Virus record (IMG/VR): IMGVR_UViG_3300033406_000021
Location: 1 to 38,251 of that record
Origin: a virus
Taxonomy: Duplodnaviria > Caudoviricetes
DNA: 38,251 nucleotides
Direction: 5' to 3' (one strand)
Position 1 is the first letter of the stretch, and every line of letters begins with the position of its first letter. Shown one piece after another: positions 19,660 to 38,251 of this stretch. A program made the position numbers and the translations under genes. The notes below the pieces were generated by a model. It was given only the letters and a program-made list of their open reading frames with translations, ran no database searches and was not told the origin of the DNA.

Positions 19660-19672
19660 GAGAACAGTCCTT

Positions 19673-23810: not shown

Positions 23811-24221
23811 CTAGGCGACCGGTCTAGAGGCATTTGGGGCTGGACTTTTAACCCCCCTCCCCTGCCCGCTCTTTTCTTCGGCCTGTTTGACCTTGTCGTG
23901 GTGCAGCTTGCACAGAGGCTGCCAGTTGTTGTCGGTGTCCCAGAACAGATCCTGGTCACCACGGTGAGGAATGATGTGGTCGACAATCGTAGCCGCAGTA
24001 ATCCGGCCTTCGTCCTCGCACATCTTGCAAAGCGGGCGGCGGCGGAGGAATGTTTCTCGCGCCTTCTGCCATCGGCTGTTGTAGCCACGCTGGCTCGAAG
24101 AGCCTCGCCGGGAGTCGTACTGCTTCTCGACTTCCTTGCGATGGGCATCGCAGTAAGCACCGCTTTTAACCAAGGCCTTGCAGCCGGGGTGCCGACACGG
24201 CTTAGGCGCTGATCGCGGCAT
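23811..24221 (-). CDS. HNH endonuclease, packaging-associated (HK97 gp74-like)
   Basis: Start MPRSAPKPC at 24221; RGY..RW..AR..FL, PLC..C, VDHIIPHRGD..LFWD..NWQPLC..HH. Confidence 0.92.
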   Translation of the reverse strand: MPRSAPKPCRHPGCKALVKSGAYCDAHRKEVEKQYDSRRGSSSQRGYNSRWQKARETFLRRRPLCKMCEDEGRITAATIVDHIIPHRGDQDLFWDTDNNWQPLCKLHHDKVKQAEEKSGQGRGVKSPAPNASRPVA

Positions 24222-24231
24222 GTCTTCCCCT

Positions 24232-24260
24232 GTACTTTTTAACCATACACCCTGTGTCAA
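24232..24260 (-). promoter_or_regulatory. Candidate late promoter
   Basis: Perfect TTGACA (24260-24255) upstream of the HNH start; no consensus -10 at 16-18 bp. Confidence 0.45.
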
Positions 24261-24287
24261 CCCCCCTCTTTGAAAAACCCATGTCGC

Positions 24288-24755
24288 TCACCCCCTCCGC
24301 AGCCGCGAGGCCAGCTGGCCTTCCATCATCAACTCTGCATCGCGCAGGCAATCGATGCCGATCGACACGGCGGCATTGCCCTTAGGGTCAGGCCGATGGC
24401 CGGTACCGCCGCACTTGCTGCACGGGAACTGCTCGACACCCGTCACACCTCGCCCGCCGCAAGCAAGGCAGCGGCTATCCTTCCAGAACTCGAAGGCTTT
24501 GAACGCCAGCTCCTTGACGCCATCGGCTGGCACTCCGCGCCGCTGCATCTCCTTCGCCAGGACAAGGACCACGCCCCACATACCCACCGCACTGGGCGGC
24601 TCGGCCAGGAAGCGGACAACGTAGAAGCCAAGCGGGTTATGCCGGCCAGAAATCCCCAGCGCGACAGCACACTCATGCGGCCACAAACCCCAGGTCAGGT
24701 TCCCCGACGCCGACGCAGTGACAGCACTTTCCACCCGGACATGATCAACTACCAT
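24288..24755 (-). CDS. Zn-finger late-gene regulator (Q-like position)
   Basis: CLACGGRG...CSKCGGTG; last gene before the late operon. Confidence 0.6.
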   Translation of the reverse strand: MVVDHVRVESAVTASASGNLTWGLWPHECAVALGISGRHNPLGFYVVRFLAEPPSAVGMWGVVLVLAKEMQRRGVPADGVKELAFKAFEFWKDSRCLACGGRGVTGVEQFPCSKCGGTGHRPDPKGNAAVSIGIDCLRDAELMMEGQLASRLRRG

Positions 24756-24943
24756 TTGCCATTCCCCTTCAATGCGCCAGCCTTGGCCAGCTTGGTCAGT
24801 CGGCGAATCCGCCGGGCCTTGCGCCGACGATCCTGCTCCCTCAATCGCTCCTCTTCAGCCGCCATCCGCGCCCGCATGCCGCGCAGGCGATCGATGATCA
24901 AGGCCGGGTCCTGGTACATCCAACCGAACGGCACGCACGTCAT
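24749..24943 (-). CDS. Hypothetical basic protein
   Basis: Translationally coupled (ATGA overlap); Y.DPA motif; Arg-rich helix. Confidence 0.6.
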   Translation of the reverse strand: MTCVPFGWMYQDPALIIDRLRGMRARMAAEEERLREQDRRRKARRIRRLTKLAKAGALKGNGKW

Positions 24944-25176
24944 TTCTTGGCTTTCTCCCTAGCGATGCTTTGACGAACGCGGGCGGTCACACCGCGCCGC
25001 AAATCCTGCTCGATGGCCTCGGCCATCGCACGCATGACAACCTCGAAGGCCCGGCCATCCACCTGGGAGGCGTACCGGAAAACATGGCTGTTCCACGTCA
25101 TGTCGATTCCGAAAAACCCGGTCACCGCCGTCAGATCTTTGGCTGTCTGCGGGGAAATCAGCACCGGCCCGCTCAT
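24940..25176 (-). CDS. Hypothetical protein
   Basis: ATGA overlaps on both sides within the replication operon. Confidence 0.65.
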   Translation of the reverse strand: MSGPVLISPQTAKDLTAVTGFFGIDMTWNSHVFRYASQVDGRAFEVVMRAMAEAIEQDLRRGVTARVRQSIAREKAKK

Positions 25177-25385
25177 AGCGCCACCATCCCGCCGTGGCAG
25201 TCATCGTCGAACGAGTCGTCGCCAGCCTCCAGATCACGGAAGTCCGGCCGCCGCACCCGCTTGGCCGGCCGGACGAACTTCTCGCCAAGCACCGCCTCGG
25301 CCATATCACGCATCGCCAACGACACGCCAGCCTCGCCGGCCTCATAGCGAGCCTTGACCTTCAGCCACGGCGTCAGATCGGGCAT
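25173..25385 (-). CDS. Hypothetical protein
   Basis: GGAGGTG RBS upstream; coupled to the next gene. Confidence 0.6.
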   Translation of the reverse strand: MPDLTPWLKVKARYEAGEAGVSLAMRDMAEAVLGEKFVRPAKRVRRPDFRDLEAGDDSFDDDCHGGMVAL

Positions 25386-26395
25386 AACTCACCTCCTCGC
25401 TTGCTCTGCACCGCCTTGCGGCGCTGCTTCTCGGCATCCTCGATGTGCATCAACGCCAGCTCGACGCGACCGCGCAGCCGAGCTATCGGCTCATCGGGCA
25501 AGCGATCGATGCCGACCGCCTTGCCCTTCGCGATGATTCCCGCCTCGCTGTTCCACCAAGCGGACCATGCCGGCTCAATCGCATTCCCCCTGCTGACCCT
25601 ACGGCCTGCGATCACGCGCTGAACGAAGATATCCAGGAACGGCAGGTTGATCGGGGCATGGTTTTGCGTACTCTCTCGATCGCTTTTAGCGAGGCTGTAA
25701 GCCTCGTGCAGTTCCTCGCCGGTCACGGCGAGGGCCACCCAACCGGCGACTTGCGCCGCTCGACTTGTCAGCCTGGCGGCGCAGCCGCGCTGGTGTTCGT
25801 GCAGACGTATCCACTCGACCATCTGCTCAGCCTGCAGCGGCACCAGCAGCAAATCCGGGTTATCCACAGGCGCTGTACATGCTGCTGCTGATGCTTGAAT
25901 AGAAGGATGGTTTACTCTTACTTCTGAGGTGTGCCCCTTTGTGGGGTTTTGGGGCTGCCCCATTGCGTGCCCCATATCACCCGCAAACCCTTGCGCCTGC
26001 TGGGTTTCACCATGCCCCAATGCATGCCCCTTTACCGTGCCCCTTTGATGCCCCTTTAGTTTTTCGCGAGCAGCACCAACACTCGCTTTCGGAAGCAAAA
26101 AAACAAGCACCTCGCCGTTCCCGCAAGGCTCGATCAAGCCATGCTTCTCCAGCTGCTGCAGCGCGCTACGCACCGCCTTCTTGGTCGGCGACCCTGACTC
26201 CGAGCGACCCGGTGCCGGCTCGATGTAGAGCTCTTCACACAAGCTCTGCAAGCTAATGCCGCGCACATCGCCAACACGCCGCGACGCCACGCTCATGTAC
26301 CAGCGGAGCACCACGTAGAGCCGGAACTGCATGTACGGCAAGCCCGCCAGGGCCTCCCATTCAGCATCGACGATGGAAATCGCCTTTTCGCTCAC
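25373..26395 (-). CDS. Replication initiator (lambda O-like position, winged-HTH N-terminus)
   Basis: GTG start at 26395 with GAGGGGG RBS; ISLQSLCEELY...KKAVRSALQQLEKHGLI; internal iteron array; follows cII. Confidence 0.75.
   Translation of the reverse strand: MSEKAISIVDAEWEALAGLPYMQFRLYVVLRWYMSVASRRVGDVRGISLQSLCEELYIEPAPGRSESGSPTKKAVRSALQQLEKHGLIEPCGNGEVLVFLLPKASVGAAREKLKGHQRGTVKGHALGHGETQQAQGFAGDMGHAMGQPQNPTKGHTSEVRVNHPSIQASAAACTAPVDNPDLLLVPLQAEQMVEWIRLHEHQRGCAARLTSRAAQVAGWVALAVTGEELHEAYSLAKSDRESTQNHAPINLPFLDIFVQRVIAGRRVSRGNAIEPAWSAWWNSEAGIIAKGKAVGIDRLPDEPIARLRGRVELALMHIEDAEKQRRKAVQSKRGGELCPI
25860..26057. repeat. Putative replication origin: 7 iterons TGCCCCWWW + AT-rich spacer + DnaA box
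   Basis: Copies start at 25932, 25956, 25968, 26013, 26025, 26038, 26049; TTATCCACA at 25860-25868. Confidence 0.8.
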
Positions 26396-26436
26396 ACGCC
26401 CCCTCAATGGTTGTTTTTATAGGTAAGCAAGAACGA

Positions 26437-26895
26437 CTATTCCGCCATGCCTTCCAGCCGCGCCAGCATCGCCATCAAGGTCTGCTGCTGCCGATAGATG
26501 GCCTGCCTGATCTTCGCGACCTCGGCGCGCTCGACGACATGATCGGCCAGAGCCTCATCAACCGCCCGGCCGACCTCGCCACCCGCCCGCCAGACGTGCG
26601 TGATCATCTCCAACACCGCCAGGTCGCCCGATGCCGCCTCAACATCCGGCATCTTGAGAAACACTCCACCGCGCTGCTGTGCTGCGGCATGCGCCAGCTC
26701 GTCCGAATCGCACAGATCGATGATCTCTTCGGTCCGATCAATCCCCAGCGAATGGCGCTCGTTTCCCACCAACTGATTGCGCAGGATCTGCGGTTTCACC
26801 TGGTGATCCGGCGACGACAGCGCCGCTGCCAGCGCCTCAATGCCGCCATTGAACGTCCGGGCGGCCCGATGGACCGCAATACGCAAATCACTCAT
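26437..26895 (-). CDS. CII-like phage regulatory protein
   Basis: A.H......GG.EALA......LRN.L......H.L pattern of the phage regulatory CII family; downstream of cro. Confidence 0.8.
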   Translation of the reverse strand: MSDLRIAVHRAARTFNGGIEALAAALSSPDHQVKPQILRNQLVGNERHSLGIDRTEEIIDLCDSDELAHAAAQQRGGVFLKMPDVEAASGDLAVLEMITHVWRAGGEVGRAVDEALADHVVERAEVAKIRQAIYRQQQTLMAMLARLEGMAE

Positions 26896-26969
26896 GTGTG
26901 TACACCCCTTTGTTCAAACGTTTGTCATAGCCATGACAGCACCTAAAGTCGCTTCAACGGCACCGGAAT

Positions 26970-26994
26970 AAAAAACCGGCGCCCGAAGGCACCG
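26970..26994 (-). terminator. tR1-like intrinsic terminator between cro and cII
   Basis: Minus strand CGGTGCC-TTCG-GGCGCCG-GTTTTTTATT. Confidence 0.8.
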
Positions 26995-27050
26995 AGAAAC
27001 GATCCACCAGGGAGGAGACAACAATGGACCGCAGAGGGAGATGGGGATCA

Positions 27051-27395
27051 TTAGCAACCTTCGATTCGGCGATCAGCCTTCCGCTGATCGGACCGGCGCC
27101 GGTCGATGCCGCGGCGTGGATCGCCGGAGGCGCATTCGACCGGAGCGGCCGGCGCTTCGGTAGAACGAACGATGCCGCCAGCAGGCAGCGCGTCGTCGGG
27201 ATTCGGGTAGATGTCCGGCCGCAGCATGTGCGGCGTCACTTGCCAGTGCGTTGCCACACACACGCCGATGACACGCTCCGGCGGAACACCGGCGCGACAC
27301 CACTTGCGGATCGCCTGATAGGTCACGCGCAACTGTTTCGCCAAGGGCTGCAGCCCGACTAACCGGATCGCCGTTTCGATAGGAAGCTCACTCAT
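27051..27395 (-). CDS. cro: Cro/YdaS-family HTH regulator
   Basis: AI..VG...LA..L.VT.QAI.KW...GVP..R, VT.H.LRPDIY; divergent from the repressor. Confidence 0.88.
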   Translation of the reverse strand: MSELPIETAIRLVGLQPLAKQLRVTYQAIRKWCRAGVPPERVIGVCVATHWQVTPHMLRPDIYPNPDDALPAGGIVRSTEAPAAPVECASGDPRRGIDRRRSDQRKADRRIEGC

Positions 27396-27402
27396 GCGCC
27401 CA

Positions 27403-27471
27403 AATATACAACCGAAAGCTATATTTTATCAACAACTGAAAGTTACGCGTCACGATGTAACAATCGGTTGT
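27403..27471. promoter_or_regulatory. oR: three operators plus pR and pRM
   Basis: ACAAC-CGAAA-GCTAT (27408), ACAAC-TGAAA-GTTAC (27432), GTAAC-AATCG-GTTGT (27457), spaced 24 and 25 bp; pR on the minus strand TTGATA-18-TATATT. Confidence 0.82.
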
Positions 27472-27906
27472 ATGACAGACGATCCAGAGCTGACCGCCTT
27501 TTCTCGCCGCCTCAACGAGGTCTGCGACGACATGGAAGTGCCGCCGAAAGGCAAAGCTAGACAGACCAACCTCGGAAAGCTTTTTGGCGTCACCCAGAAT
27601 GCAACACGGAAATGGCTAGAGGCCGAGGGCTATTGCTCGATCGCCATGGGCAAGCGCATCGCTGCCTGGGGCGGCGTCAGCTTCGACTGGCTAATGACCG
27701 GCGACGGCATCAAGCGGCCGGGCGGCGACAACCCCCTGCTGCTGCGCTATCACCAGGCCGACCCGGCTACCCGCACGCTAATCGACCTCGCCCTGGCACA
27801 ACCGGACGACCCGATTCCACCCGGCCTTTCACCCAGCCTGCGCACCCTCGTCGACATGGCCCGTACCGCGATCCGCAACGATCTCGAACCCCATGGCCGT
27901 TCCTAG
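27472..27906 (+). CDS. cI: Phage repressor, XRE HTH, no S24 peptidase domain (144 aa)
   Basis: Start MTDDPEL at 27472; F..RL, RQT.LGK.FGVTQNA.RKWL, VSFDWL.TG.G; the longer 27394 start would run across the operators. Confidence 0.85.
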   Translation: MTDDPELTAFSRRLNEVCDDMEVPPKGKARQTNLGKLFGVTQNATRKWLEAEGYCSIAMGKRIAAWGGVSFDWLMTGDGIKRPGGDNPLLLRYHQADPATRTLIDLALAQPDDPIPPGLSPSLRTLVDMARTAIRNDLEPHGRS

Positions 27907-28729
27907 CCCGGCATTCCTTGACGAGTCCGCTTACGGCCAGTTCACCGCCTGGCCAACCAGCCGAGGCTGGAACAGCTCGACCCACTTGGCACGTATCAAT
28001 TTCGGCCATGGCGACGAAAACGCCTACGTCAAGCTGATATTCACCGATGCATTCCCCGCCTTGGCCAATGAGGCTATCGGCTGGCAACTGGCTCATGCCT
28101 GCAACATCCCCGCCGCCAGCCGCGCCGCCATCATGATCGGCAGCGCCGAATTTTGGCGCGAAACGTTGGGCAGTCTGCCGAGTGGCTGCCCGACTACAGG
28201 CGACATTCCCGCCTGGTGCATCGCCAGTTGCGCCACGCTCGATCAGCATACCTGGATCAACATGGACAACGATGCGGCCGTGACCATGTTACTGAAGTGT
28301 CCACGCGGCCAGCAGATCGCCGCCTTCGGCACCTGGCTGCACCATCCGGACCAACACCCCGGCAACCTGCTACGAATTGGCAGCAACGACTGGGCCATCA
28401 TCGACCACGAACTGCTGTTCAATGGCGTGCTCGGCAATTGGCGCAAGCCACCGGCGCGGCGCGATTTCTCGACGCCGCCCTTCCTTCTCAAGCACCTGGA
28501 TAGCCTGGTTGCCCGTAGCCGGATCAGCCACAAGGTCGACAGTGACATCCGCTCGGCCATGATTCACTATGCCAGCCAGCACATCACAGCTATCGGCAAG
28601 GCCATGCCCTATCTGGCCGATGTCCTGGAAAAAGTAGAACCTCCCGCGACTGCCAAAAGTGTTCTACCATTGATCGTCGATCGAGCCTGGAATTTTTGGA
28701 TGCCCTCCACGGTCAATAAGCTCGCATGA
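27893..28729 (+). CDS. HipA-like Ser/Thr kinase
   Basis: YVK Lys, LANE.I...LA....IP, catalytic loop DQHPGNLL, Mg-binding IIDHE. Confidence 0.8.
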   Translation: MAVPSPAFLDESAYGQFTAWPTSRGWNSSTHLARINFGHGDENAYVKLIFTDAFPALANEAIGWQLAHACNIPAASRAAIMIGSAEFWRETLGSLPSGCPTTGDIPAWCIASCATLDQHTWINMDNDAAVTMLLKCPRGQQIAAFGTWLHHPDQHPGNLLRIGSNDWAIIDHELLFNGVLGNWRKPPARRDFSTPPFLLKHLDSLVARSRISHKVDSDIRSAMIHYASQHITAIGKAMPYLADVLEKVEPPATAKSVLPLIVDRAWNFWMPSTVNKLA

Positions 28730-29592
28730 ACTTCAACGCCCTCCGCCGTCATGCCGTCACCCAACCCCGCGAGGATGCCTTTACCGGCACCTGGCGCGTG
28801 GTGCAATGGCAACCCGACCTGTTCGGCCCGCAGCGCTTCGTTGTCGGCGTTCTGGTCGAGTCGTCCGTCGGTGATCGCGCCTACCGCATCATGGACCGAC
28901 CGGAACGAATTGAATGCTTTTTCCGGCCGCGCCCGATCCGGCGTGAGTTCTCGGGACTGATGTCCCTGCTTCGCAACAGCCTGGCCGAACCAGGCGCTGA
29001 CGCGGTGCAGTTGCCCTCCCCCAACTTTTCATTCAGCGAACCGTGCTTCGTTCGCGGCACATCAGCCCAGGCAGTCGCCGACCGAATCTTCGGCGACATG
29101 GTCACGGCTGCCGACCCACTACCGAATGAGGAAGAACGCGAAATCGGCCCAAACACCGAGGAAACGCGTAGGCAGGTCACCCGCTTCCTTAAGCAGATGA
29201 GCGACCTCGCCTTCGAGCGCATCGTCCGCGAGCAGGGACAAACCCTTTCCGAGCACTACCTCGACGTCACCCTCGCACCCGACCGTGGCGCCGGCAGCAT
29301 CGTCTCCGCCTGCTATCGTTCGCTGACCAGCATCGAACTCAAGCTGCTGCGTGCCGCCAACGACATCAACGCCTACGCCAGCGCCCAGAAGCGTGAGCGG
29401 AAAGCCATCTTCCTGCTCGAACCCGACGACGATGCTCCCATTTCACCGAAGGAACGCCGGTCGATGGACAACCTGATTGGTAACGAACTATGGAAGCTCG
29501 AACAGGCCGGCTTTGACACCCCGCGCAATACTGACTTCGGCGGCCTGGCCCGCGACATTCACGACTGGGCAATTCCTTTGCTAACCTCTTGA
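28726..29592 (+). CDS. DUF3037-like partner of the kinase
   Basis: N-terminal W.VVQW.PD....RF.VGVL matches my recollection of DUF3037; ATGA coupling to the kinase. Confidence 0.6.
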   Translation: MNFNALRRHAVTQPREDAFTGTWRVVQWQPDLFGPQRFVVGVLVESSVGDRAYRIMDRPERIECFFRPRPIRREFSGLMSLLRNSLAEPGADAVQLPSPNFSFSEPCFVRGTSAQAVADRIFGDMVTAADPLPNEEEREIGPNTEETRRQVTRFLKQMSDLAFERIVREQGQTLSEHYLDVTLAPDRGAGSIVSACYRSLTSIELKLLRAANDINAYASAQKRERKAIFLLEPDDDAPISPKERRSMDNLIGNELWKLEQAGFDTPRNTDFGGLARDIHDWAIPLLTS

Positions 29593-29604
29593 GTAACCGA
29601 CAGA

Positions 29605-29645
29605 AAATAACGACAGGTTATTTACCGTGTATAATCACGGGTTAA
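29605..29645 (+). promoter_or_regulatory. Internal promoter with two CI-operator-like sites
   Basis: AAATAAC-GACAG-GTTATTT (29605-29623) and ATAAT-CACGG-GTTAA (29631-29645), 24 bp apart; TATAAT at 29630-29635. Confidence 0.6.
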
Positions 29646-29685
29646 TTAAATCGCGATGATTACAAAATCATAATCGCACAACCGC

Positions 29686-29889
29686 ATGGGGATGACTTTG
29701 AAAACTCTGACCGACATCATGAGCGCCCTTCCCAAGGACGATCTGATTGATAACGCCTATGGAATTTTCAAGAACACGGACGAAAAGGCCGTCACCAAGA
29801 ACCTGACCGATCCGTCGATTGCGGAAGCCGCGTTTCGCGCTGTATTTTTCGATATTGAAGAGGCCCAGACTGCCCACCTAGGCTTCTGA
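29686..29889 (+). CDS. Hypothetical acidic protein (67 aa)
   Basis: ORF after the AT-rich promoter, 7 nt before the next gene; start may be 29692. Confidence 0.6.
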   Translation: MGMTLKTLTDIMSALPKDDLIDNAYGIFKNTDEKAVTKNLTDPSIAEAAFRAVFFDIEEAQTAHLGF

Positions 29890-29896
29890 ATCCGGA

Positions 29897-30505
29897 ATGG
29901 ACATCGCGTACCATTTCCCGGATGACATCCTGGGTGACAAGGCCAGCCAGGAACAAAAAGCGAAACGACTGAAAGAAATCGAATTCTGGTTCGACCGATA
30001 CGTTCAGGGTGTCCGCACCATCCAGGGCGGACTAGGCAAAGCCAACTACAAGAACCCAGGAAGTCTGGTTTTTGCGGATGATGCCGCCCTTCACGTCAAC
30101 GAGGTGTACTGGTACATCCTCGAACAGCGTGTCCGGCCACGCATCGTTTCGTGCAATGGCGACATCGAAGTTACCGTTGATCGACACAAGATCAGCTCGC
30201 TGACGGAAATCGTCATCGCCCTGACTGAACCGATCGAGCACGAGCACCTGCCAACGAAACGTCGGCTTAATGCCAGCCTGGGTTTCTATTGCGCCATGAA
30301 CATCATGGCGAACTGGAACCCCAAGATATCGAAAGAGATGTTCGTGAGTCGCCCGTTCTCGCAAGCTCACACCACGTGGCTGGAATACCTGCCGACCTCA
30401 ACCGAGGAACGCATGCCGATTTTCTCGAACGCCGCCAACTGGTACCTTGTCGAGACGCTGTTCGAAGAGCGGCATGACAAGAAGCTGCTGCGACCGGTCA
30501 ACTAG
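29897..30505 (+). CDS. Hypothetical protein (202 aa)
   Basis: Globular-looking ORF ending just before a terminator; no family recognised. Confidence 0.75.
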   Translation: MDIAYHFPDDILGDKASQEQKAKRLKEIEFWFDRYVQGVRTIQGGLGKANYKNPGSLVFADDAALHVNEVYWYILEQRVRPRIVSCNGDIEVTVDRHKISSLTEIVIALTEPIEHEHLPTKRRLNASLGFYCAMNIMANWNPKISKEMFVSRPFSQAHTTWLEYLPTSTEERMPIFSNAANWYLVETLFEERHDKKLLRPVN

Positions 30506-30525
30506 CCCCACCTACGCGAACAAGC

Positions 30526-30554
30526 AAACCCGCCTTGATGGCGGGTTTTTTATT
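30526..30554 (+). terminator. Intrinsic terminator
   Basis: AAACCCGCC-TTGAT-GGCGGGTTT-TTTATT. Confidence 0.85.
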
Positions 30555-30589
30555 ACCATGTCGTACTTTGGAACACCAAGGGGACCAAC

Positions 30590-31348
30590 ATGGAATTAAT
30601 CATTGCTCTGCTGCTCATCGGCCTTGCCGCCCATTACTGGAAAAAACACCAGCTTCAGGCCCGACCATCATTCATCGACGACTCGCTGGACTCGGTCAAC
30701 TGGGAGACCCCGGCCGATCTTGTGCCATCCAATCCGCGCCCGATTCAGGCCACCCTTCGCCTTTCCTATCGGGATACAGCCGGCGCCACCACCGAGCGGC
30801 ACGTCACCGTTCGGGAATGCGATACCACCAACCCGGCTGGCTATTTGATCGGCCATTGCCAGTTGCGCGACTCGATCCGCACCTTCCGCATGGATCGCAT
30901 CAAGCGTGCGGTCGATGTCGAGACGGGCGAGGTCATTGAAAACCTCAACTCGTACGCCGCGAAGAAGTATGCAGACTCGCCCATCGCTTCGCTGGACACG
31001 CTGTTCGCCGATTCTGCCGACTCGTTGCGCGCCCTCTTTTATATCGGTAAGGCCGACGGCCGTTTCACAGCCAAGGAAAAGCAGATTTTCCTCACGTACT
31101 GCCAGCAGGCGGCCAACGATGACCGGATCACGCTCAAGCAGATCGAGGATGCCTGTCGCTACATCCCGACGCCGACCATGCAGGCCTACAAGCTGATCTG
31201 CGGCCGGCTGGCCAAACTCGACGGGGCGAAGCGGGCGGCGATCCTGCAAGCGGCCGAAGCCATGATCGCCACCGAGAAAACAATCGCGGCCCAGGAAGAG
31301 GAGGCGCTGGCCTATATGCAGAAACGGTTCGCCGAGCCCACCAGATGA
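30590..31348 (+). CDS. Membrane-anchored WYL-domain / TerB-like protein
   Basis: N-terminal TM; WYL pattern Y.D..G..TER.V...YL.GHC.LR...RTFR.DRI; C-terminal ADG.F...EK...(A..MI.....I...E...L) TerB-like. Confidence 0.8.
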   Translation: MELIIALLLIGLAAHYWKKHQLQARPSFIDDSLDSVNWETPADLVPSNPRPIQATLRLSYRDTAGATTERHVTVRECDTTNPAGYLIGHCQLRDSIRTFRMDRIKRAVDVETGEVIENLNSYAAKKYADSPIASLDTLFADSADSLRALFYIGKADGRFTAKEKQIFLTYCQQAANDDRITLKQIEDACRYIPTPTMQAYKLICGRLAKLDGAKRAAILQAAEAMIATEKTIAAQEEEALAYMQKRFAEPTR

Positions 31349-31376
31349 GGGCGCGCCGCCAAGCTTGTAGATGAAT

Positions 31377-31398
31377 AACCGCCTTCGGGCGGTTTTTT
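31377..31398 (+). terminator. Intrinsic terminator closing the accessory cassette
   Basis: AACCGCC-TTCG-GGCGGTT-TTTT. Confidence 0.85.
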
Positions 31399-31439
31399 CA
31401 TTGCCTGCTCGCCCAGCCAAGGATGCACAAAACCGAAAT

Positions 31440-31482
31440 ACAACTTTAGGTGTTGACGTAAAATAACTTTGGGTTGTATTGT
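31440..31482 (+). promoter_or_regulatory. oL/pL: two operators and the early promoter
   Basis: ACAAC-TTTAG-GTGTT (31440), ATAAC-TTTGG-GTTGT (31463); TTGACG-18-TATTGT, same layout as pR. Confidence 0.82.
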
Positions 31483-31511
31483 GTTCGCACCAATTCAAAC
31501 CGGAGCGAACC

Positions 31512-31646
31512 ATGAAACTCACCCTCGGCGCCCTCAAAGTCCACCTCGCCTACTGCGCCGCTTACCCCAGCATCCGCCGCATTTTCGGCGTCATGTTCAC
31601 CGCCAGCAGCATCCCCAAAGTCGGCGCCCCGCCCGTTCGCCACTGA
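31512..31646 (+). CDS. First pL gene, 44-aa hypothetical protein (absent from the ORF track)
   Basis: GGAG RBS; MKLTLGALKVHLAYCAAYPSIRRIFGVMFTASSIPKVGAPPVRH; C-ending codon usage like its neighbours. Confidence 0.65.
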   Translation: MKLTLGALKVHLAYCAAYPSIRRIFGVMFTASSIPKVGAPPVRH

Positions 31647-31655
31647 GCGCGTTCC

Positions 31656-31853
31656 ATGGCCTGCGCCCGTAACCCACTCCAGGTGCTCAAGGAAGCCCGT
31701 CAGATCGCCTCTGACTACGACCTCACGATCATCGAAAAGGCCGGGCGCTTTCACGTCTACCGCAACACGCAAACCGGCCCCGCCTGGCAAGGCCAGTGCG
31801 GTCAACCGCAGGCGCTGCGCGCCTTGGTTTGCAAGCTGACCAATTTCGAGTGA
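31656..31853 (+). CDS. Hypothetical early protein
   Basis: Co-oriented ORF in the pL operon with typical codon usage. Confidence 0.7.
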   Translation: MACARNPLQVLKEARQIASDYDLTIIEKAGRFHVYRNTQTGPAWQGQCGQPQALRALVCKLTNFE

Positions 31854-31857
31854 GGTC

Positions 31858-32670
31858 ATGATGGCCACCAAATCATCATCACATCCCGTGCCAGTCGACT
31901 GCGAGGTCTGCCGGCACTACACCGGCACCGCCTACATCTTCCAGTTTGGCTGCGCCAAGGGCCAGTGCCAGGAGAAAACCTGGACGCTCAAGCGCGAGGC
32001 CTGCGCCGACTTCGCGCTCATGTCCCGCCAGGAGCAGATCCTCAAGCGCTTCGCGCACAGCGCCAAGCACTACGGCGAGCGCGATATCAAGAAGCACCGC
32101 GCCGAGGTACGCCGCATGGCCAGCGGGATGCAGAAGACGCTGGAGAGCTTCAGCCGCTTCATGACCATGGGGCAGATCGAGGCCATCAAGGCGGCATCCC
32201 TGCACCTCGCCGACCTGGGCGACGATCTGGAGCTGGCCGGCCGCCTGGCCAACACGGTGCAGAAAAACGCCGAAGCCGAGCGCCAGCGCCAGGAAAAGGC
32301 ACGGCGCGCCGCACTGGTCGAGAAACACTTCGGCGACATGACGCCGGCCGACTGCCTCGCCCTCTGCCAGGATCTGGTCGCCTTCGATAGCCGGGACGGT
32401 AGCGACTGGCTGCGCTGCTGGAAGCGCAACCCTGATGCTTTCGTCAATATCTTCGACAGCCACGTCATGGGGAACGCGCTGCTCTACCACGCCCGCGCCC
32501 CATCGCCGGCAACGCTGGCCGCCGTCAAGGAAGCCGCCTCCCTCTGCATCGATGACCTGAAGCAGCCGAAGCGCAGCCTCAGCTACGCAACGTGGGCGGA
32601 TTTCGAAACCTTCCGCGCCTGGCACCGCGATATCGCTGCCACCCTAGCCCGGATCGGTACGCCATGCTGA
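31858..32670 (+). CDS. Hypothetical early protein with N-terminal Cys cluster and coiled coil
   Basis: GAGG RBS; CEVCRH...C...C...C. Confidence 0.75.
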   Translation: MMATKSSSHPVPVDCEVCRHYTGTAYIFQFGCAKGQCQEKTWTLKREACADFALMSRQEQILKRFAHSAKHYGERDIKKHRAEVRRMASGMQKTLESFSRFMTMGQIEAIKAASLHLADLGDDLELAGRLANTVQKNAEAERQRQEKARRAALVEKHFGDMTPADCLALCQDLVAFDSRDGSDWLRCWKRNPDAFVNIFDSHVMGNALLYHARAPSPATLAAVKEAASLCIDDLKQPKRSLSYATWADFETFRAWHRDIAATLARIGTPC

Positions 32671-32870
32671 ACCTAACCAACATGCTCCGCGCCCCGATGC
32701 ACGACTACGAAGTGACCATGGACCGCAAGGCCTGCCTCAACGCCAACGAGAGCGCCCGCAAGTGCATCGCCTACGTGCGCGCCGTCAATGCCGCCGAAGC
32801 CAAGCAGGCAGCCGAGAAACTGCCGGGCAAGTCCGCCTTCAAGGCCATGTCTGCCAAGGAGGTCAAATGA
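32664..32870 (+). CDS. Hypothetical early protein
   Basis: Start MLNLT at 32664; V.A.NA.EA...A pattern; ATGA coupling to the next gene. Confidence 0.65.
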   Translation: MLNLTNMLRAPMHDYEVTMDRKACLNANESARKCIAYVRAVNAAEAKQAAEKLPGKSAFKAMSAKEVK

Positions 32871-33205
32871 CCCGCTTCGCCACCCGCTTTGGCGCCTTCG
32901 AGATCGACTCGCTGCCCGGCCAGTGCCAGGTCGCCGTCTGCCACAGCTTCGTTGTGCCGGAAGACCACCGCGGCAACGGCCACGGCCACCATCTCAAGGC
33001 CGAGCAGGAAGCCCTGCTTGATCACCATCACTACGACTTCGCCGTCTGCACCGTGGCCGCCGGCAACGAGCGCCAGAAACGCATCCTGGAAAAGTCCGGC
33101 TGGCGCCACCTGGCCAACTTCCGCAACCGCCGGTCCTGCGAAACCACCGAACTGTGGTGCCGGGGCGCGACGCCTTCCACTACCGAGGATAGCCACCATG
33201 AATGA
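32867..33205 (+). CDS. Minimal GNAT-family acetyltransferase (112 aa)
   Basis: Start MTRFA at 32867 with AAGGAGG RBS; motif A V.EDHRGNGHG..L; TV..GN..QKRILEK.GW. Confidence 0.75.
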   Translation: MTRFATRFGAFEIDSLPGQCQVAVCHSFVVPEDHRGNGHGHHLKAEQEALLDHHHYDFAVCTVAAGNERQKRILEKSGWRHLANFRNRRSCETTELWCRGATPSTTEDSHHE

Positions 33206-35633
33206 TATGACCGACGCAAAGCACATCGAGGCCGCCCAGCTCTGCCAGAGCCAGGCGCTGCGTATTGCCGAGATTCACCCCAGCCCGACCAACCCGCGCA
33301 AGACCTTCCCCGAAGACGAGATGGCAGAGATGGTGGCCAGCGTCAAGCGCCACGGCGTCATGTCGCCGATCCTGGTACGCCCCTGGCCGGCCGCCTACGC
33401 CTTTGAAGGCGACGCCCCAAAGTACGAGCTGATTGCCGGCGAGCGCCGCTACCGCGCCGCCAAAGCCGCCGGCCTGGAATACATCAGCGGTACCGTGCGC
33501 GATCTCGACGACCACGAAACCCTTGAGCTGCAGATCATCGAAAACCTGCACCGCAAAGACCTCAACGAGCTGGAAGAGGCCGAGGGTTACGAGATGATGA
33601 TCAAGCGCTACAGCTACACCGCCGAGCAGCTGGCGGAGAAGATCGAGAAGAGCAAGGCGTATATCTACGCCAGGCTGAAGCTCACCGCCTTGTGCGAAAA
33701 GGCACGCGAGGCTTTCCGCAATGGCCTGCTCGATGCATCGCGCGCCCTGCTGATCGCCCGAATCCCGCTGGCCGCACTCCAGGCACGGGCCACTGAGGAA
33801 ATTGCCCACGGCTGGCAAGGCCCCATGAGCTACCGTGGCGCAGCCGAGCACGTGCAGCGCACCTACATGCTCAAGCTGGCCAATGCCACTTTCCCAATCA
33901 GCGACGATAGCCTGGTGGCCGGCGCCGGCCAGTGCCAACCCTGCCCGAAGCGCACCGGCAACACCCCGGAGATCTACCAGGACGTAAAGAGTGCAGACAT
34001 CTGCACGGATCCGGAATGCTTCGCCGCCAAGAAAGCCGCCTGGCTTGAGCGGCAAAAGTCCGAGGCCGCATCGACTGGCAAGACCGTCATCACTGGCGAC
34101 GATGCCCGAAAGATTATGCCCTACGGGCCCGACACCGACCTGCAGCATTACATCGTCCTGGACCGCCCGAACTACGACGCTCCGAAGATCGACGGCGCCC
34201 CCCCAACGCACCGCCAGATGCTGGCCGAAGCCAAGGTCGAAACGATGATGGTTGAGGACTTCCGCTCCGGAAAACTGGTAGAGGTCGCCAAGCGCAGCGA
34301 GGTCAAGAAAGCCTTGGTGGCCGCCGGCATCACCGCGCCCACCAGCTCATCCGAACGGGAGAAGGAAGCCGAAGCTCAAGCCCGCGAAGAAGGCGAATTC
34401 CGCCGCCGCCTGCACCGCCAGGTGCGCAGCGCCTTCGCCACGGACATCAGCGAACACGACGCCGCGCTCGACGAAGACGACATGCGCCTGATCGCCCGCC
34501 AGTTCTGGTCCTGCACCTGGAATGAAAACCAAAAGCGCCTCGCGGCCATCTGGATCGAGAGCGAGGAGAAGCTCGAGGAACATGCACGCATCCGCATGCT
34601 GACGGAACGGATCAACACCATGACCCCGGCCGAGCTATGTCTGCTGCTGATCGACCTTTCGCTCGTTGGCCAGACGCACATTAATACCTATTCCCGCGAA
34701 AACACCCCGACTCACCTCCTGGACATGGCCAAGCGCCTCTGTGTTTCGCCCGACACCATCCGCCGCGAAATGCTGGTCGAGAAGGAGGAGAAGGCCGCCA
34801 AGAAGAAGGGCAAGGCGAGCAAGGGAGCGAAGCCAGCCGTCGGGGAGGAGCAAGCTTCCGCTGCAGATGTGCTGCCCGACCCCACTGGCAAGCCCGCTAT
34901 CCGGCCTTTCGCCCCAGAAGTAGGAGATCGAGTCCGGATCCGCGAGGATGCAGATGCAGCCTGCTTTACCGGGAGAGAGGGTTATATCACCCAAATCGAA
35001 AAGGACACGGTGATCATCCACCTCGACTCGTACAAGACGACCTTCCGTTTCGCTCGCGAGGAATTCGACGTGGTTCCCGAGCCTCACCTGGCGGCGGAGT
35101 CCGAGCAGCCAGGCGCCGCAGAAGTGCAGCCGGAAACTGCAAATGCCGGGCGGCAAACGTACCAAGTCGGCAACCGCGTGCGCTATGCAGATGAAGGGAC
35201 TCCCGAGGCCGACGCAATCGCGACCGTCCAAGCAATCCACGAAAACGGGAACATCGAGATCCTGACCCACTCCGGGAAACGCATCGTGCTCGCCTCTTGG
35301 GCCACTGACCGTTGGATGAAGCCAGCACCTCTCGAAGCCGAACAAGAGCCCGCCGAAGACCCCGAACCACCCACCCGCAAGCCCACCAGCAAGATCGAGA
35401 CCCTCTACTGCCACCCGGAAAACGCCGACCTCGCCTGGACCGGCCGCGGCCGCAAGCCGAAGTGGGTCGAGGCCTGGCTTGAAAAGGGCGGCACGCTCGA
35501 ACAGCTGCTCGCCAAGAAGCGCCCAGCCCATAAGCCCAAGGCCACCAAGGCGGCCGCTTGCGAGATCTCGACGCCGCGCTGCGACAAAACCCTTGAACTG
35601 GCCGGCCTCGACGTCGCCCAGCCCACCGCTTAA
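33198..35633 (+). CDS. ParB/Spo0J-family protein fused to SH3/KOW-like repeats and an H-NS-type DNA-binding domain (811 aa)
   Basis: Start MNDMT at 33198 (GAGG RBS); NPRK.F, PILVRP, IAGERRYRA, ENL.R.DL..LEEA; C-terminal Y.HPE....WTGRGRKPKWV. Confidence 0.88.
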   Translation: MNDMTDAKHIEAAQLCQSQALRIAEIHPSPTNPRKTFPEDEMAEMVASVKRHGVMSPILVRPWPAAYAFEGDAPKYELIAGERRYRAAKAAGLEYISGTVRDLDDHETLELQIIENLHRKDLNELEEAEGYEMMIKRYSYTAEQLAEKIEKSKAYIYARLKLTALCEKAREAFRNGLLDASRALLIARIPLAALQARATEEIAHGWQGPMSYRGAAEHVQRTYMLKLANATFPISDDSLVAGAGQCQPCPKRTGNTPEIYQDVKSADICTDPECFAAKKAAWLERQKSEAASTGKTVITGDDARKIMPYGPDTDLQHYIVLDRPNYDAPKIDGAPPTHRQMLAEAKVETMMVEDFRSGKLVEVAKRSEVKKALVAAGITAPTSSSEREKEAEAQAREEGEFRRRLHRQVRSAFATDISEHDAALDEDDMRLIARQFWSCTWNENQKRLAAIWIESEEKLEEHARIRMLTERINTMTPAELCLLLIDLSLVGQTHINTYSRENTPTHLLDMAKRLCVSPDTIRREMLVEKEEKAAKKKGKASKGAKPAVGEEQASAADVLPDPTGKPAIRPFAPEVGDRVRIREDADAACFTGREGYITQIEKDTVIIHLDSYKTTFRFAREEFDVVPEPHLAAESEQPGAAEVQPETANAGRQTYQVGNRVRYADEGTPEADAIATVQAIHENGNIEILTHSGKRIVLASWATDRWMKPAPLEAEQEPAEDPEPPTRKPTSKIETLYCHPENADLAWTGRGRKPKWVEAWLEKGGTLEQLLAKKRPAHKPKATKAAACEISTPRCDKTLELAGLDVAQPTA

Positions 35634-35645
35634 CCGGAGAACGCA

Positions 35646-36506
35646 ATGTCGTACAACATCAAGCCGCTTTGTATCTATCACCACGGCTGCGCCGACGGCG
35701 TTGCTGCTGCCTGGGCCGTGCTCGAGTATCACCGCGAGCGCGAAATCGAAGTAGATCTGCACCCCGGGATCTACGGCGAAGCACCGCCCGACGTCACTGA
35801 CCGCGATGTGATCATGGTCGACTTCAGCTACAAGCGCGACGTGCTGCTGCAGCTGGCCGAGCAGGCCCGCAGCATCCTGATCCTGGACCACCACAAAACG
35901 GTGCTGGAGGATCTGGCTCCATTGAGCACCTTGCCCACCAATATCGATATCGCCTTCGACCTCAACCGATCCGGCGCTATGATCGCCTGGCAGCAATTCC
36001 ACCCGGAGCGCCCCGCCCCGCTGCTCTTCGACCACATTCAGGATCGCGACCTGTGGCGCTTCGAACTGATCGGCACCCGCGAGATCACCGCCGCCGTGCA
36101 TTCCCACGAGCTCAATCCTAAAACCTTTGGCGAGCTCGTGTTCAACGGCTGCGGCCGCCTGCTTAACGAGGGCCGAGCCATCCTGCGCAAGCAAAACAGC
36201 GACGTCGCCGCCATCATCCGCAACGCACGGCGCACCATGAAGTTTGGCGAATGCATCGTACCCGCCGCCAACGTGCCCTGGATGTACGCCAGCGACGTCG
36301 CCGGCGAACTGGCCAAGGGCTACCCCTTCGCCGTCACCTACTATGACGACGCCGACGGCCGCCGCTTCTCGCTGCGCTCAACCCAGGACGGCGCCGACGT
36401 CTCGCAGATCGCCAAAGCACTGGGCGGCGGTGGCCACGAGCACGCCGCCGGCTTCCGCATGACGCGGGAAGAGGCGCTTGATTTTGAAGTTGCGGGAGGG
36501 GTTTGA
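35646..36506 (+). CDS. DHH/DHHA1 phosphoesterase
   Basis: YH..CADG..AA, VDFS, LDHHKT, DRDLW, FSLRS, GGGGH..AAGF. Confidence 0.9.
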   Translation: MSYNIKPLCIYHHGCADGVAAAWAVLEYHREREIEVDLHPGIYGEAPPDVTDRDVIMVDFSYKRDVLLQLAEQARSILILDHHKTVLEDLAPLSTLPTNIDIAFDLNRSGAMIAWQQFHPERPAPLLFDHIQDRDLWRFELIGTREITAAVHSHELNPKTFGELVFNGCGRLLNEGRAILRKQNSDVAAIIRNARRTMKFGECIVPAANVPWMYASDVAGELAKGYPFAVTYYDDADGRRFSLRSTQDGADVSQIAKALGGGGHEHAAGFRMTREEALDFEVAGGV

Positions 36507-37030
36507 GCATGACCTGGCTACTCACTGCCTCCGGGCGCCAGTTCGACCCGATCGACCCACAGCCGGACATGATCGACCTGGTAGACATCGCCACCGGCCT
36601 TTCGAACGAATGCCGCTTTGCCGGCCAGTGCAAGTTCTTCTACAGCGTCGCCCAGCACTCCGTCCTGGTCAGTCAGCATGTACCGCCCCAGCACGCCTGG
36701 GAGGCTCTGCTGCACGATGCGGCAGAAGCGTACATCAAGGACATCCCGGCACCGATCAAGCGCCTGCTACCCGACTACCGCGCCCTCGAGCACAAGATTG
36801 AGTCGGCGATCCGTGCCCGCTTCGGCTTGCCACCGATCCAGACGCCCAGCATCAAGCACGCCGACCTTATGCTGCTCGCTACAGAGCGCCGTGACCTGAT
36901 GCCGGACACCGGCGATGCCTGGCCGATGATCGAAGGCATTGCGCCGCTCGACAAACGCATTCGTGCGGTCCACTCGTCGCAGGCCAAGTCGCACTTCATG
37001 CAACGAGCGCTGGAGGTACTGCAGGCATGA
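36503..37030 (+). CDS. HD-domain phosphohydrolase (YfbR/5'-deoxynucleotidase-like)
   Basis: DIA..LS..CRF.G, YSVAQHS, ALLHDA.EAY, K.AD...L.TE.RDL. Confidence 0.9.
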   Translation: MSMTWLLTASGRQFDPIDPQPDMIDLVDIATGLSNECRFAGQCKFFYSVAQHSVLVSQHVPPQHAWEALLHDAAEAYIKDIPAPIKRLLPDYRALEHKIESAIRARFGLPPIQTPSIKHADLMLLATERRDLMPDTGDAWPMIEGIAPLDKRIRAVHSSQAKSHFMQRALEVLQA

Positions 37031-37299
37031 GGAAATACATCCCGAAGCTGCAGCGCGTACCGCTGCTGCCCCCAATCGATGCGCCTAACTGGTCTGAGCT
37101 GATGAACGAACTGCTACAGGCCGGCGTTCCGAGAACGCGCATTGCCATTAATTGCCGCATGGCGCGCGAAACAATCTACGCCGTAGCCAAGGGCACGGCT
37201 GAACCGAAATGGAGTCAAGGGCAAATGCTGCTGCAGCTCAAGCGCTACTTGGGCGCACAAACCCCAGGACGTCACCCAACTCAGGAGCTCGAATCATGA
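37027..37299 (+). CDS. Small HTH DNA-binding protein
   Basis: W..L...L...G.....IA......RETI.....G..EP....G..LL.L XRE-like pattern. Confidence 0.7.
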   Translation: MRKYIPKLQRVPLLPPIDAPNWSELMNELLQAGVPRTRIAINCRMARETIYAVAKGTAEPKWSQGQMLLQLKRYLGAQTPGRHPTQELES

Positions 37300-37544
37300 T
37301 CCTCGGCAACCTGCCAACCGGCACCCTGCAGCACGCCAAGCTGAGCGGCGTCTGCTTCGAACCCCTCAAGGCCCAGACAACGGACGGCCGCCCCGCCCGC
37401 CTGGCCATCATCGACGAAGACGGCAAGGTGATCGAATCCGGCGACGCTGTTTCCAGCGAGGTATGGAACCTTGTCCGCGGGGTCTGGAGAAACTACCTCC
37501 AGGGCAAAGGCCACATCCGGGTTATTTCCGGTGGCGATCAATAA
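37296..37544 (+). CDS. Hypothetical protein (82 aa)
   Basis: Start MILGN at 37296, AGGAG RBS, ATGA coupling. Confidence 0.7.
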   Translation: MILGNLPTGTLQHAKLSGVCFEPLKAQTTDGRPARLAIIDEDGKVIESGDAVSSEVWNLVRGVWRNYLQGKGHIRVISGGDQ

Positions 37545-37607
37545 GACATTAGCATCGAAATCAGTTACTCGAAAACTTCGAGCAACTGACAGCAAAGAAA
37601 AAGGATC

Positions 37608-37790
37608 GTGAGCAAAGCCAATGCTGGCGAATTCGTCGTGCGCTGCATCATGTGCAACAAGGAATTCCGCGTCGGTGATAAAGCCAAGTGTGGCGGCCTC
37701 TACAACGGCCAGCCGATTTGCAAGACAGGCGATATTCAGCGCGAACTTGATAGCCGTCTTCCGCCACAGAGCAAGTCTTATAACCCGTAG
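37608..37790 (+). CDS. Small Cys-rich (Zn-ribbon-like) hypothetical protein
   Basis: GTG start with AAGGA RBS; CIMC...C...C. Confidence 0.5.
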   Translation: MSKANAGEFVVRCIMCNKEFRVGDKAKCGGLYNGQPICKTGDIQRELDSRLPPQSKSYNP

Positions 37791-37833: not shown

Positions 37834-37864
37834 ACGGCCAGCCTAGCGCTGGCCGTTTTCTTTT
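37834..37864 (+). terminator. Intrinsic terminator ending the early operon
   Basis: ACGGCCAGC-CTAGC-GCTGGCCGT-TTTCTTTT. Confidence 0.8.
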
Positions 37865-37886
37865 CCGCATGCACTAGAATGCGCGA

Positions 37887-38105
37887 ATGTCTCTCGTCCT
37901 GATCATCGTCATCGGCTGGCTCTATGTGACCGTGTTGGTTGCCGCCAATGAGCCGACCATCATTTCCGGCATCATCTCATTTGCCTTCTACGGCCTGTTG
38001 CCGTGCAGCCTGCTCATTTACTTCGCTGGATCGCGAGTTCGCAGAGAGCGCAAGCGTTTCAGAGAAATGAAGGCGGCCGAGTCGGCCCAAAAGACCAGCG
38101 AATAA
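37887..38105 (+). CDS. Phage-borne intact homolog of the interrupted host small membrane protein (72 aa, 2 TMs + basic tail)
   Basis: 31/42 identical residues (hand alignment) to the reconstituted host protein; TAGAAT 6 nt before the ATG. Confidence 0.88.
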   Translation: MSLVLIIVIGWLYVTVLVAANEPTIISGIISFAFYGLLPCSLLIYFAGSRVRRERKRFREMKAAESAQKTSE

Positions 38106-38107
38106 AC

Positions 38108-38147
38108 GTGTACTTGTCAGTGCATTTAGCTGGCTTTATGTAACATT
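38108..38147. other. attR: attR (phage P arm + TG crossover + host B' arm)
   Basis: GTGTACTTGTCAGTGCATTTAGC (38108-38130) is inverted to 124-146; shared core GCTGGCT. Confidence 0.88.
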
Positions 38148-38251
38148 GCTGGTTGCCGCCAACGAACCAAGCATCGTTGCCGGCATAATTTCATTCTTTT
38201 TTTATGGGCTGCTGCCCTGCGGACTGCTGCTCTGGATCAGTGGCAGCAAGG
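38131..38251 (+). pseudogene. 3' fragment of the interrupted host gene (runs off the window)
   Basis: WLYVTLLVAANEPSIVAGIISFFFYGLLPCGLLLWISGSK; no in-frame start between the upstream TGA (38068) and the crossover. Confidence 0.85.

What the first reader, a model, noticed from the sequence alone, without database searches (positions are those of the whole stretch)
37875..38251. Phage destroys a small host membrane-protein gene and carries its own full-length replacement allele
Seen: integration splits the host ORF at Trp8 (101-123 / 38131 onward). The last phage gene (37887..38105) ends 2 nt before the attP arm. It is a complete homolog (31/42 identical over the alignable part), sits behind a terminator and has its own TAGAAT -10. 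Established: phages that integrate inside genes usually restore them by duplicating one end inside attP; here the fusion is not restored and a separate diverged copy is supplied instead. Inference: this uncharacterised 2-TM microprotein matters to the host or the phage. The lysogen effectively swaps alleles, either as pure complementation or as lysogenic conversion such as an altered DNA-entry factor or superinfection exclusion, and excision would restore the host allele.
Basis: partly seen in the sequence, partly recalled or inferred. Interest (0 to 1): 0.85.

Follow-up and report, generated by a model that had tools for sequence, protein, structure and literature searches.

The report
Phage replacement gene displaces host original
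A virus of Dechloromonas (Azonexus) bacteria inserts into the eighth codon of a small conserved membrane-protein gene and carries an intact version of that gene beside its insertion site, likely to make up for the damage, and about a third of the species in this genus now hold the virus-type version instead of their own, likely left behind by viruses that were later lost.

Summary
The window is a 38 kb serine-integrase prophage inserted at the TG of Trp8 of a single-copy 76-aa two-helix membrane gene beside phaC; the flanks match Dechloromonas hortensis (125/126 and 121/121 nt). No in-frame start restores the host half. A full 72-aa homolog sits next to attP, under purifying selection (dN/dS 0.06-0.11). 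Five distinct phages, some with only 5-7% shared DNA, carry the same copy-beside-attP layout; sister integrases target rimO with ordinary 5'-end repair and lack the gene. New: 42 of 123 genus genomes carry the phage-type allele at the host locus. These alleles form one clade with the phage copies (99/89), yet need 11 changes on the host tree, and 21 of 35 keep a dead host start stub where the old ATG was, several ending at the crossover. Best reading: complementation cassette, repeatedly domesticated. The phage allele also lacks the attB left-arm motifs. Expression and protein function are untested; superinfection exclusion is unsupported. The scan noted the same pattern before on other DNA (spoVK, e1-6233658, unchecked).

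The parts
53..76 (+). Host promoter region of the target gene (TGTCAATG...CATAAT), divergent from phaC in relatives
   Evidence: Conserved 20, 31 or 48 nt before the ATG in host-type alleles; promoter role inferred
101..123 (+). 5' stub of the host gene (MYIVAIG-W); also the attB left arm
   Evidence: window 1-126 is 125/126 identical to D. hortensis L070
99..146 (.). attL: B arm, TG crossover at 122-123, P' arm ending in GTACAC (141-146)
   Evidence: same attL in prophage G001
168..1808 (+). Large serine integrase, 546 aa (probable start 177)
   Evidence: Pfam Resolvase, Recombinase, Zn_ribbon_recom above cut-off; PHROG 95; start inferred from alignment A2
1827..37790 (.). Prophage body: SRAP, lysis, Mu-like contractile tail, HK97-type head, terminase, CII/Cro/CI region, ParB-HNS fusion, DHH and HD phosphatases
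37834..37864 (+). Intrinsic terminator-like hairpin and T run that would insulate the copy from upstream phage transcription
   Evidence: hairpins at the same place in L083, L084, L086
37875..37880 (+). -10-like box TAGAAT, 6 nt before the ATG; predicted leaderless transcript
   Evidence: TA[CG]AAT 5-8 nt before the ATG in 5 of 5 phage copies; function inferred
37887..38105 (+). Full-length phage-lineage (S-type) allele of the target gene, 72 aa, predicted two membrane helices and a basic tail
38108..38155 (.). attR: P arm (GTGTAC at 38108, TGCA), TG crossover at 38131-38132, B' arm
38131..38251 (+). Start-less 3' remainder of the host gene, from Trp8
   Evidence: 121/121 nt identical to D. 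hortensis L070; 20 open codons upstream hold no ATG, GTG, TTG or CTG

Best explanation
A clade of serine integrases inserts its phages into codon 8 of a conserved single-copy membrane microprotein gene and travels with a complete copy of that gene next to attP, which likely complements the broken host gene and has likely been left behind many times as the permanent host allele. Shown: the split, the lack of fusion repair, the full copy, its recurrence on unrelated phage backbones, purifying selection, one gene clade scattered over the host tree, and dead host start stubs upstream of chromosomal phage-type alleles. Inferred: (1) the copy is transcribed in the lysogen as a leaderless mRNA from the -10 box behind the terminator; (2) the protein is an inner-membrane helical hairpin with a short periplasmic loop and a basic cytoplasmic helix, most likely an accessory subunit of a housekeeping envelope complex whose loss costs fitness (partner not identified); (3) excision would rejoin the host allele; (4) deletions that remove the prophage between the stub and the terminator, and remove or recombine with the host 3' half, leave the phage allele in place; (5) because the phage allele differs across the attB left arm, it would not be cut by its own integrase, and hosts that keep it would have lost the site.
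For: Layout repeats in 5 distinct phages: window, G001, G521 (attR forms), G522/L176 and G524/G525 (attP forms, copy directly upstream of attP and integrase); window shares 65% of its DNA with G001 but 5-7% with the others. One more relative has attL and attR contigs in run X1. 4 of 4 clade integrases with DNA target this gene; 0 of 43 records with sister integrases hold the family; 65 of 112 integrase loci with at least 150 nt upstream show a rimO-like 5' end instead (RimO confirmed for 2). dN/dS window vs G001 copy 0.055 (52 codons) and 0.107 (72 codons). Family found in 123/129 genus, 262/401 family and 122/251 order genomes, nearly always once. Gene tree without the N-terminus that defines the types: 35 chromosomal S alleles plus 5 phage copies are one clade, 99/89, nested in host-type alleles; 1 change on the protein tree, 4 on third positions alone. 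On the flanking-gene tree S needs 11 changes (shuffled mean 25.7) and monophyly is rejected, AU p 1e-95; 13 and 10 changes on left and right flanks. Stub at the ancestral ATG position in 21 of 35 S loci; match to the host consensus falls from 0.62 (nt 18-23) to 0.40 and 0.26 after the crossover; L013, L017, L018, L055 stubs run to the TG(G); 0 of 45 M loci have an upstream stub. 31 of 35 S loci have a stub or the phage-type -10 box. L026, L035, L061 are chimeras with a host-type tail overlapping the next gene. attB left-arm scores: M 5.8 and 6.3, S -2.2 and -6.6, phage -1.6 and -7.9.
Against: No expression or fitness data. 19 of the 23 rows of the integrase clade are protein-only, so their targets and cargo were not seen. 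No integrase of this clade in 129 genus genomes and no attP motif, so no intermediate (decayed prophage still holding the integrase) was caught. The L086/L087 phage copy lacks 8 residues of the loop, which argues against strict complementation there. 4 of 35 S loci show no scar (L012, L014, L058, L071). The -10 box is not phage-specific outside the genus: 2 of 3 host-type alleles read (L315, L319) have TATAAT before the ATG. The host tree is also rejected for host-type alleles alone (delta lnL 74, p 2e-4, against 469 with S), so ordinary recombination or short-gene noise contributes. With wider outgroups a long-branch host-type allele (L073) falls inside the S clade. The att-arm score matrix rests on 9 half-sites.
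Confidence: 0.74

Rival explanations
1. Lysogenic conversion: the phage allele has a changed function (superinfection exclusion, altered receptor or DNA-entry accessory), so breaking the host allele and supplying another is the point.
For: Consistent type-specific residues in the second helix and tail (for example Y in 32/35 S against W in 44/45 M); small two-helix shape like known exclusion proteins (recalled); repeated retention by hosts could reflect a benefit; loop deletion in the L086 copy.
Against: dN/dS of S alleles (median 0.23, 272 pairs) is like that of M alleles (0.21, 343 pairs), no sign of an arms race; the loop is nearly unchanged between types; no PHROG, PADLOC, Pfam or NCBIfam match for the phage protein; the gene is a single-copy chromosomal gene across the order.
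Confidence: 0.12
2. S is a host-lineage allele that spread between species by ordinary recombination after one old event; phages picked it up from such hosts.
For: Phage copies are interleaved with chromosomal S alleles, so direction is not fixed by the tree; no lysogen among 129 genus genomes; host tree rejected also among M alleles; L012 has the S reading frame directly under the host promoter.
Against: Scars differ in length (promoter to S start 68-332 nt) and the stub offset (20, 31, 47-49) follows the local host lineage, as expected of separate insertions; similarity to the host allele drops at the integrase crossover; S hosts lack the attB left arm a phage would need to sit there.
Confidence: 0.09
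3. The copy is a passive passenger captured by faulty excision and has no function for phage or host.
For: It lies at the prophage end, where such captures happen; one phage copy has an in-frame deletion.
Against: It is only 68% identical in DNA to the adjacent host half (82/121) and belongs to another clade; it is kept intact at synonymous distances above 0.5 on backbones that share 5-7% of their DNA.
Confidence: 0.03
4. The uninfected locus has two tandem paralogs and the crossover lies elsewhere, or the junctions are assembly artefacts.
For: None beyond the window being a metagenomic contig.
Against: Intact single gene in D. hortensis and D. denitrificans; same junctions in G001, G521 and run X1; free attP forms carry the copy.
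Confidence: 0.01

Closest known systems
Integrative elements that restore their target with a partial duplicate in attP (e14 in icd, dusA islands, the rimO-targeting sister integrases seen here)
   Same: Site-specific insertion inside a protein gene, with the function kept; stated as the usual rule in PMC10111431 (passages), for dusA in PMC4482086 (passages), for icd in PMC6379469 (passages). Sister integrases here rebuild the rimO 5' end.
   Different: No fusion is made: no in-frame start precedes the host half in 5 of 5 arms checked (one far CTG each in L084 and L086). A separate whole gene of its own lineage is carried.
Regulated gene integrity / active lysogeny (SPbeta in spsM, serine integrase SprA)
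   Same: Large serine integrase, very short core, target gene broken while integrated (PMC4191935 and PMC5499854, search listing and start of abstract only).
   Different: There the gene stays off until excision; here a full copy is supplied, so excision is not needed for function.
Helper-embedded PICIs with captured late genes
   Same: PMC10111431 (passage) proposes that a captured 'backup intact copy' may functionally replace the interrupted gene.
   Different: That concerns satellite and helper-phage late genes; here the target is a chromosomal gene, and the copy has replaced it in many species.
Streptomyces phage TG1 in dapC (recalled, not found in the library)
   Same: As I recall, a serine-integrase phage that inserts in dapC and has a dapC-like gene near attP.
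   Different: Unverified: searches found no paper, and PMC4111918 passages name TG1 without dapC. I recall no report of repeated fixation in host species.
Scan finding e1-6233658 (prophage with full spoVK copy in Bacillus)
   Same: By its AI note: a prophage splits a gene, carries an intact version, and that version has replaced the original in relatives.
   Different: Other phylum, gene and phage; unchecked here. The 12 of 16 passages shown from bioRxiv 2021.11.22.469490 describe integration in spoVK but no phage-borne copy.

Membership tests
Large serine recombinase prophage (phiC31/Bxb1 type) | Resolvase, Recombinase and zinc-ribbon domains in a ~500+ aa protein | tested here: met
   all three above Pfam cut-off
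Large serine recombinase prophage (phiC31/Bxb1 type) | ~50 bp att sites with a central dinucleotide and imperfect inverted arms; attB and attP forms exist | tested here: met
   attB in L070, attP in L084 and L086
Large serine recombinase prophage (phiC31/Bxb1 type) | Integrase recombines attP x attB; a directionality factor drives excision | not testable with these tools
   no directionality factor identified among the small ORFs
Target-restoring integration (icd, dusA, rimO type) | attP supplies an in-frame end that rebuilds the host gene | tested here: not met
   no ATG, GTG, TTG or CTG in the 20 open codons before Trp8 at attR
Regulated gene integrity (spsM, comK type) | Element carries no replacement for the broken gene | tested here: not met
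   full copy at 37887-38105 and in 4 other phages
Regulated gene integrity (spsM, comK type) | Host-programmed excision without lysis | not testable with these tools
   no RNA or induction data
Superinfection-exclusion membrane proteins | Sequence or fold match to a known exclusion family | tested here: inconclusive
   no PHROG, PADLOC, Pfam, NCBIfam or PDB match; best VIA Z 7.4 among generic helices
Superinfection-exclusion membrane proteins | Blocks DNA entry of a second phage when expressed | not testable with these tools
   needs a bench test
Moron (independently expressed prophage cargo) | Own promoter, insulated by a terminator, expressed in the lysogen | tested here: inconclusive
   terminator and -10 box present; no full promoter match; expression not seen
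Domesticated prophage gene | Phage-lineage allele fixed in chromosomes without the phage, under purifying selection, with integration scars | tested here: met
   direction (phage to host) is inferred from the scars

The most novel reading that the evidence does not exclude
The cassette is a self-closing allele converter: the phage copy is recoded across the attB left arm so that its own integrase cannot use it, and each host lineage that loses the prophage but keeps the copy ends up with a working gene and no attachment site. A phage allele has so ratcheted through about a third of a genus in some ten separate events, shrinking its own host range, with a second such lineage possibly in a neighbouring genus (L311-L314).
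Probability: 0.4. Interest if true: 0.82.

Novelty: new variant of a known kind. Interest (0 to 1): 0.68.

Why it matters
It shows a third outcome of integrating inside a gene, beside fusion repair and regulated disruption: whole-gene complementation, with a visible long-term result. A core gene in one third of a genus appears to be of phage descent, and scars mark the events at nucleotide resolution, which makes prophage domestication and gene displacement countable. It also marks an unnamed microprotein family, found in about half of the Burkholderiales genomes searched, as worth keeping by both phage and host, and supplies natural allele pairs, an integrase and att sites in cultured strains (D. 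hortensis and D. denitrificans host-type, D. agitata phage-type) for direct tests.

Tried and rejected
No RNA holder listed for 35600-38128: no evidence either way on expression. Family searches gave no name: Pfam, NCBIfam, PHROGs, PADLOC; a weak cardiolipin-synthase hit in 7 of 94 members (best E 1e-5) was not backed by Pfam and was dropped. Foldseek 0 matches, VIA only generic helices, PDB sequence search best E 0.37, Atlas only unnamed clusters. No match in 50,697 GenBank phages. A broader profile found no further viral contigs; attR and attL motif scans of viral contigs returned only G001. Five Rhodocyclaceae genomes with two matches and G803 hold host-type copies or fragments with no integrase hit nearby. 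Function from neighbours was rejected as weak: the gene is divergent from phaC or rimO and convergent with a ZIP transporter or pgeF, not in an operon. Capture from a rimO-adjacent locus was considered and not supported, since the S clade nests among alleles that lie beside phaC. In one search, 4 of 13 fetched loci (L307-L310) were missed by my pattern and left out; 2 of 80 loci (L029, L080) were dropped from the host tree for lack of markers. No complex prediction was run: no partner was well enough motivated. Literature: ten searches found no description of this site, gene or cassette; the TIGER paper was not held; 8 supplements of PMC10083194 hold no Dechloromonas, Azonexus or rimO; PMC12884075 main text does not name the genus, its supplements were not read; bioRxiv supplements are closed and may bear on the spoVK comparison.

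Full report
Observation. The window is a whole prophage record with 120 nt of host DNA at each end. A large serine integrase starts at 168. The host ORF MYIVAIGW at 101 resumes at 38131; GCTGGCT is shared at 120-126 and 38129-38135. Arms of five phages are symmetric about the TG of the Trp codon, with TGCA at -10 to -7 and GTGTAC at -23 to -18. The flanks are 125/126 and 121/121 identical to D. hortensis L070, where the gene is intact. The 20 open codons before Trp8 at attR contain no start codon, so the host gene is not rebuilt. The phage copy (37887-38105) is 29/40 identical to the 3' half and 3/7 to the stub; DNA identity is 82/121 with 21 of 39 differences at third positions.

The gene. 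It has no named family. AlphaFold gives helices 2-21 and 25-71, mean pLDDT 73, pTM 0.35; hydropathy shows two hydrophobic stretches followed by seven K/R in residues 50-62, which by the positive-inside rule (established knowledge) puts the tail in the cytoplasm. It was found in 123 of 129 genus, 262 of 401 family and 122 of 251 order genomes, nearly always once. In the genus it lies divergent from phaC and convergent with a ZIP transporter or pgeF-rluD; elsewhere phaC or rimO is the divergent neighbour. Outside the genus the alleles read start with the M[YHL]I[VI]..IxW pattern, so this M type is ancestral.

The cassette. The same layout occurs in G001 (integrase 82% identical, same host halves), G521 (attR only, a fragment), and in free attP form in G522/G523/L176 and G524/G525, where the copy lies directly upstream of attP and the integrase. 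The window shares 65% of its DNA with G001 and 5-7% with the others, so copy, attP and integrase move as a unit. In a tree of 165 integrases the four with DNA fall in one 23-row clade (support 100); the other 19 rows are protein-only. Of 112 integrase loci with at least 150 nt upstream, 9 (4 distinct integrases, one locus being the window's own record) show this gene and 65 show a rimO-like 5' end. None of 43 records with sister integrases holds the family. Run X1 has one contig across attL and one across copy and attR; contigs in X2 and X4 cover copy and P arm but reach fewer than 31 nt past the crossover. dN/dS between the window and G001 copies is 0.055-0.107; other phage pairs give 0.14-0.36 near saturation, one undefined.

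Displacement of the host allele. Of the best 80 of 90 genome loci (ranking favours the phage type), 45 are M type and 35 have the phage-type start (S). An unranked count gives 42 of 123 genus genomes matching from profile position 1, my proxy for S. S and M occupy the same locus, never both. A gene tree of 52 codons from the Trp on, which leaves out the defining N-terminus, joins all 35 S alleles and 5 phage copies (99/89) inside the M alleles; protein alone gives 1 change, third positions alone 4. On the tree of phaB, phaC, pgeF and rluD from 78 loci, S needs 11 changes and monophyly is rejected. A caution: the host topology is also rejected for M alleles alone, though by far less, and with wider outgroups one long M branch enters the clade, along with two alleles of another genus.

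Scars. In 21 of 35 S loci a decayed M-type start lies 20, 31 or 46-49 nt after the host promoter motif, where M alleles start; the ATG survives in 6. Match to the M consensus is 0.73 (nt 3-17, used to pick), 0.62 (18-23), then 0.40 and 0.26 beyond the crossover; L013 keeps a perfect MYIIAIGW stub that stops at TGG. No M locus (0 of 45) has an upstream stub or the TA[ACG]AAT box; 16 of 35 S loci have that box, 3 pass a strict terminator pattern; 31 of 35 have stub or box. M alleles overlap the convergent gene in 43 of 44 loci, S alleles in 6 of 33, of which L026, L035 and L061 have host-type tails, as expected from recombination between the copy and the host half. The box is not phage-specific outside the genus, so the stub is the stronger sign.

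attB. M alleles carry the arm motifs in the codons M-Y-I and A-I; S and phage alleles read L-I-I-V-I there and score negative on a matrix of 9 attP half-sites. A phage with a usable attB 200 bp from its attP would delete its own site (follows from serine-integrase directionality), so recoding is a plausible need. The consequence for hosts, loss of the site, is predicted and untested.

Mechanism and odds. Complementation with repeated domestication, 0.74. Changed function such as exclusion, 0.12: type-specific residues exist, but S alleles evolve no faster than M. Host-to-host spread with passive pick-up, 0.09. Passenger or artefact, 0.04 together. Weak points: no expression data, no lysogen or intermediate among 129 genus genomes, a loop deletion in one phage copy, and no known partner for the protein.

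Comparison. The usual rule, a partial duplicate in attP, and its exception, regulated gene integrity, are stated in PMC10111431 (passages), which also proposes backup intact copies for helper late genes; dusA and icd cases are in PMC4482086 and PMC6379469 (passages). PMC10083194 (passages and supplement search) treats serine-integrase targets as disrupted genes and does not name this genus. TG1/dapC is recalled only. Ten searches found no account of this system. The scan's own notes hold a like pattern for spoVK in Bacillus and for tRNA cassettes (unchecked), and nothing for this protein. Verdict: a real feature, a new variant of a known kind, interest 0.68.

Noticed in passing
L177, L185, L123 and others (65 of 112 loci): The sister serine integrases in Pseudomonas, Burkholderia and others target the 5' end of rimO and rebuild it; L177 holds both the restored gene and the displaced stub. 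In several Betaproteobacteria rimO is the divergent neighbour of the small gene.
   Followed up: partly
L311-L314, L316-L317: Other Rhodocyclaceae have N-terminally extended alleles at the phaC locus with a displaced host promoter; L316/L317 join the S clade, L311-L314 form a separate clade and may be a second replacement lineage.
   Followed up: partly
L086:833-1027 (also L087): This phage's copy lacks 8 residues spanning the periplasmic loop, in frame.
   Followed up: no
window 164-179 and L084, L086 integrase starts: The integrase also has a -10-like box 7-8 nt before its likely ATG, so it may be leaderless too.
   Followed up: no
window 32889-35633: 914-aa ParB-like protein fused to an H-NS C-terminal DNA-binding domain.
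   Followed up: no
window 27394-31348: Repressor followed by uncharacterised cargo genes and a WYL-domain protein; no defence-system match beyond WYL.
   Followed up: partly
L084:1-1230: A 341-aa ORF that looks like an integron-type tyrosine recombinase (by eye, not tested) lies just upstream of the copy in phage G522.
   Followed up: no
window 38152 in run X1, record 3: A relative prophage has 14 nt missing from the host 3' remainder, a possible early decay of the dead half; one contig at depth 5.6.
   Followed up: no
L295:2094-2190 (G803): A 5' fragment of the gene lies next to an IS605-type element, 350 kb from the intact copy.
   Followed up: partly
window 53-76: TGC/GCA-rich palindromes in the shared phaC / small-gene promoter region could be a PhaR site (recalled motif, not tested).
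   Followed up: no
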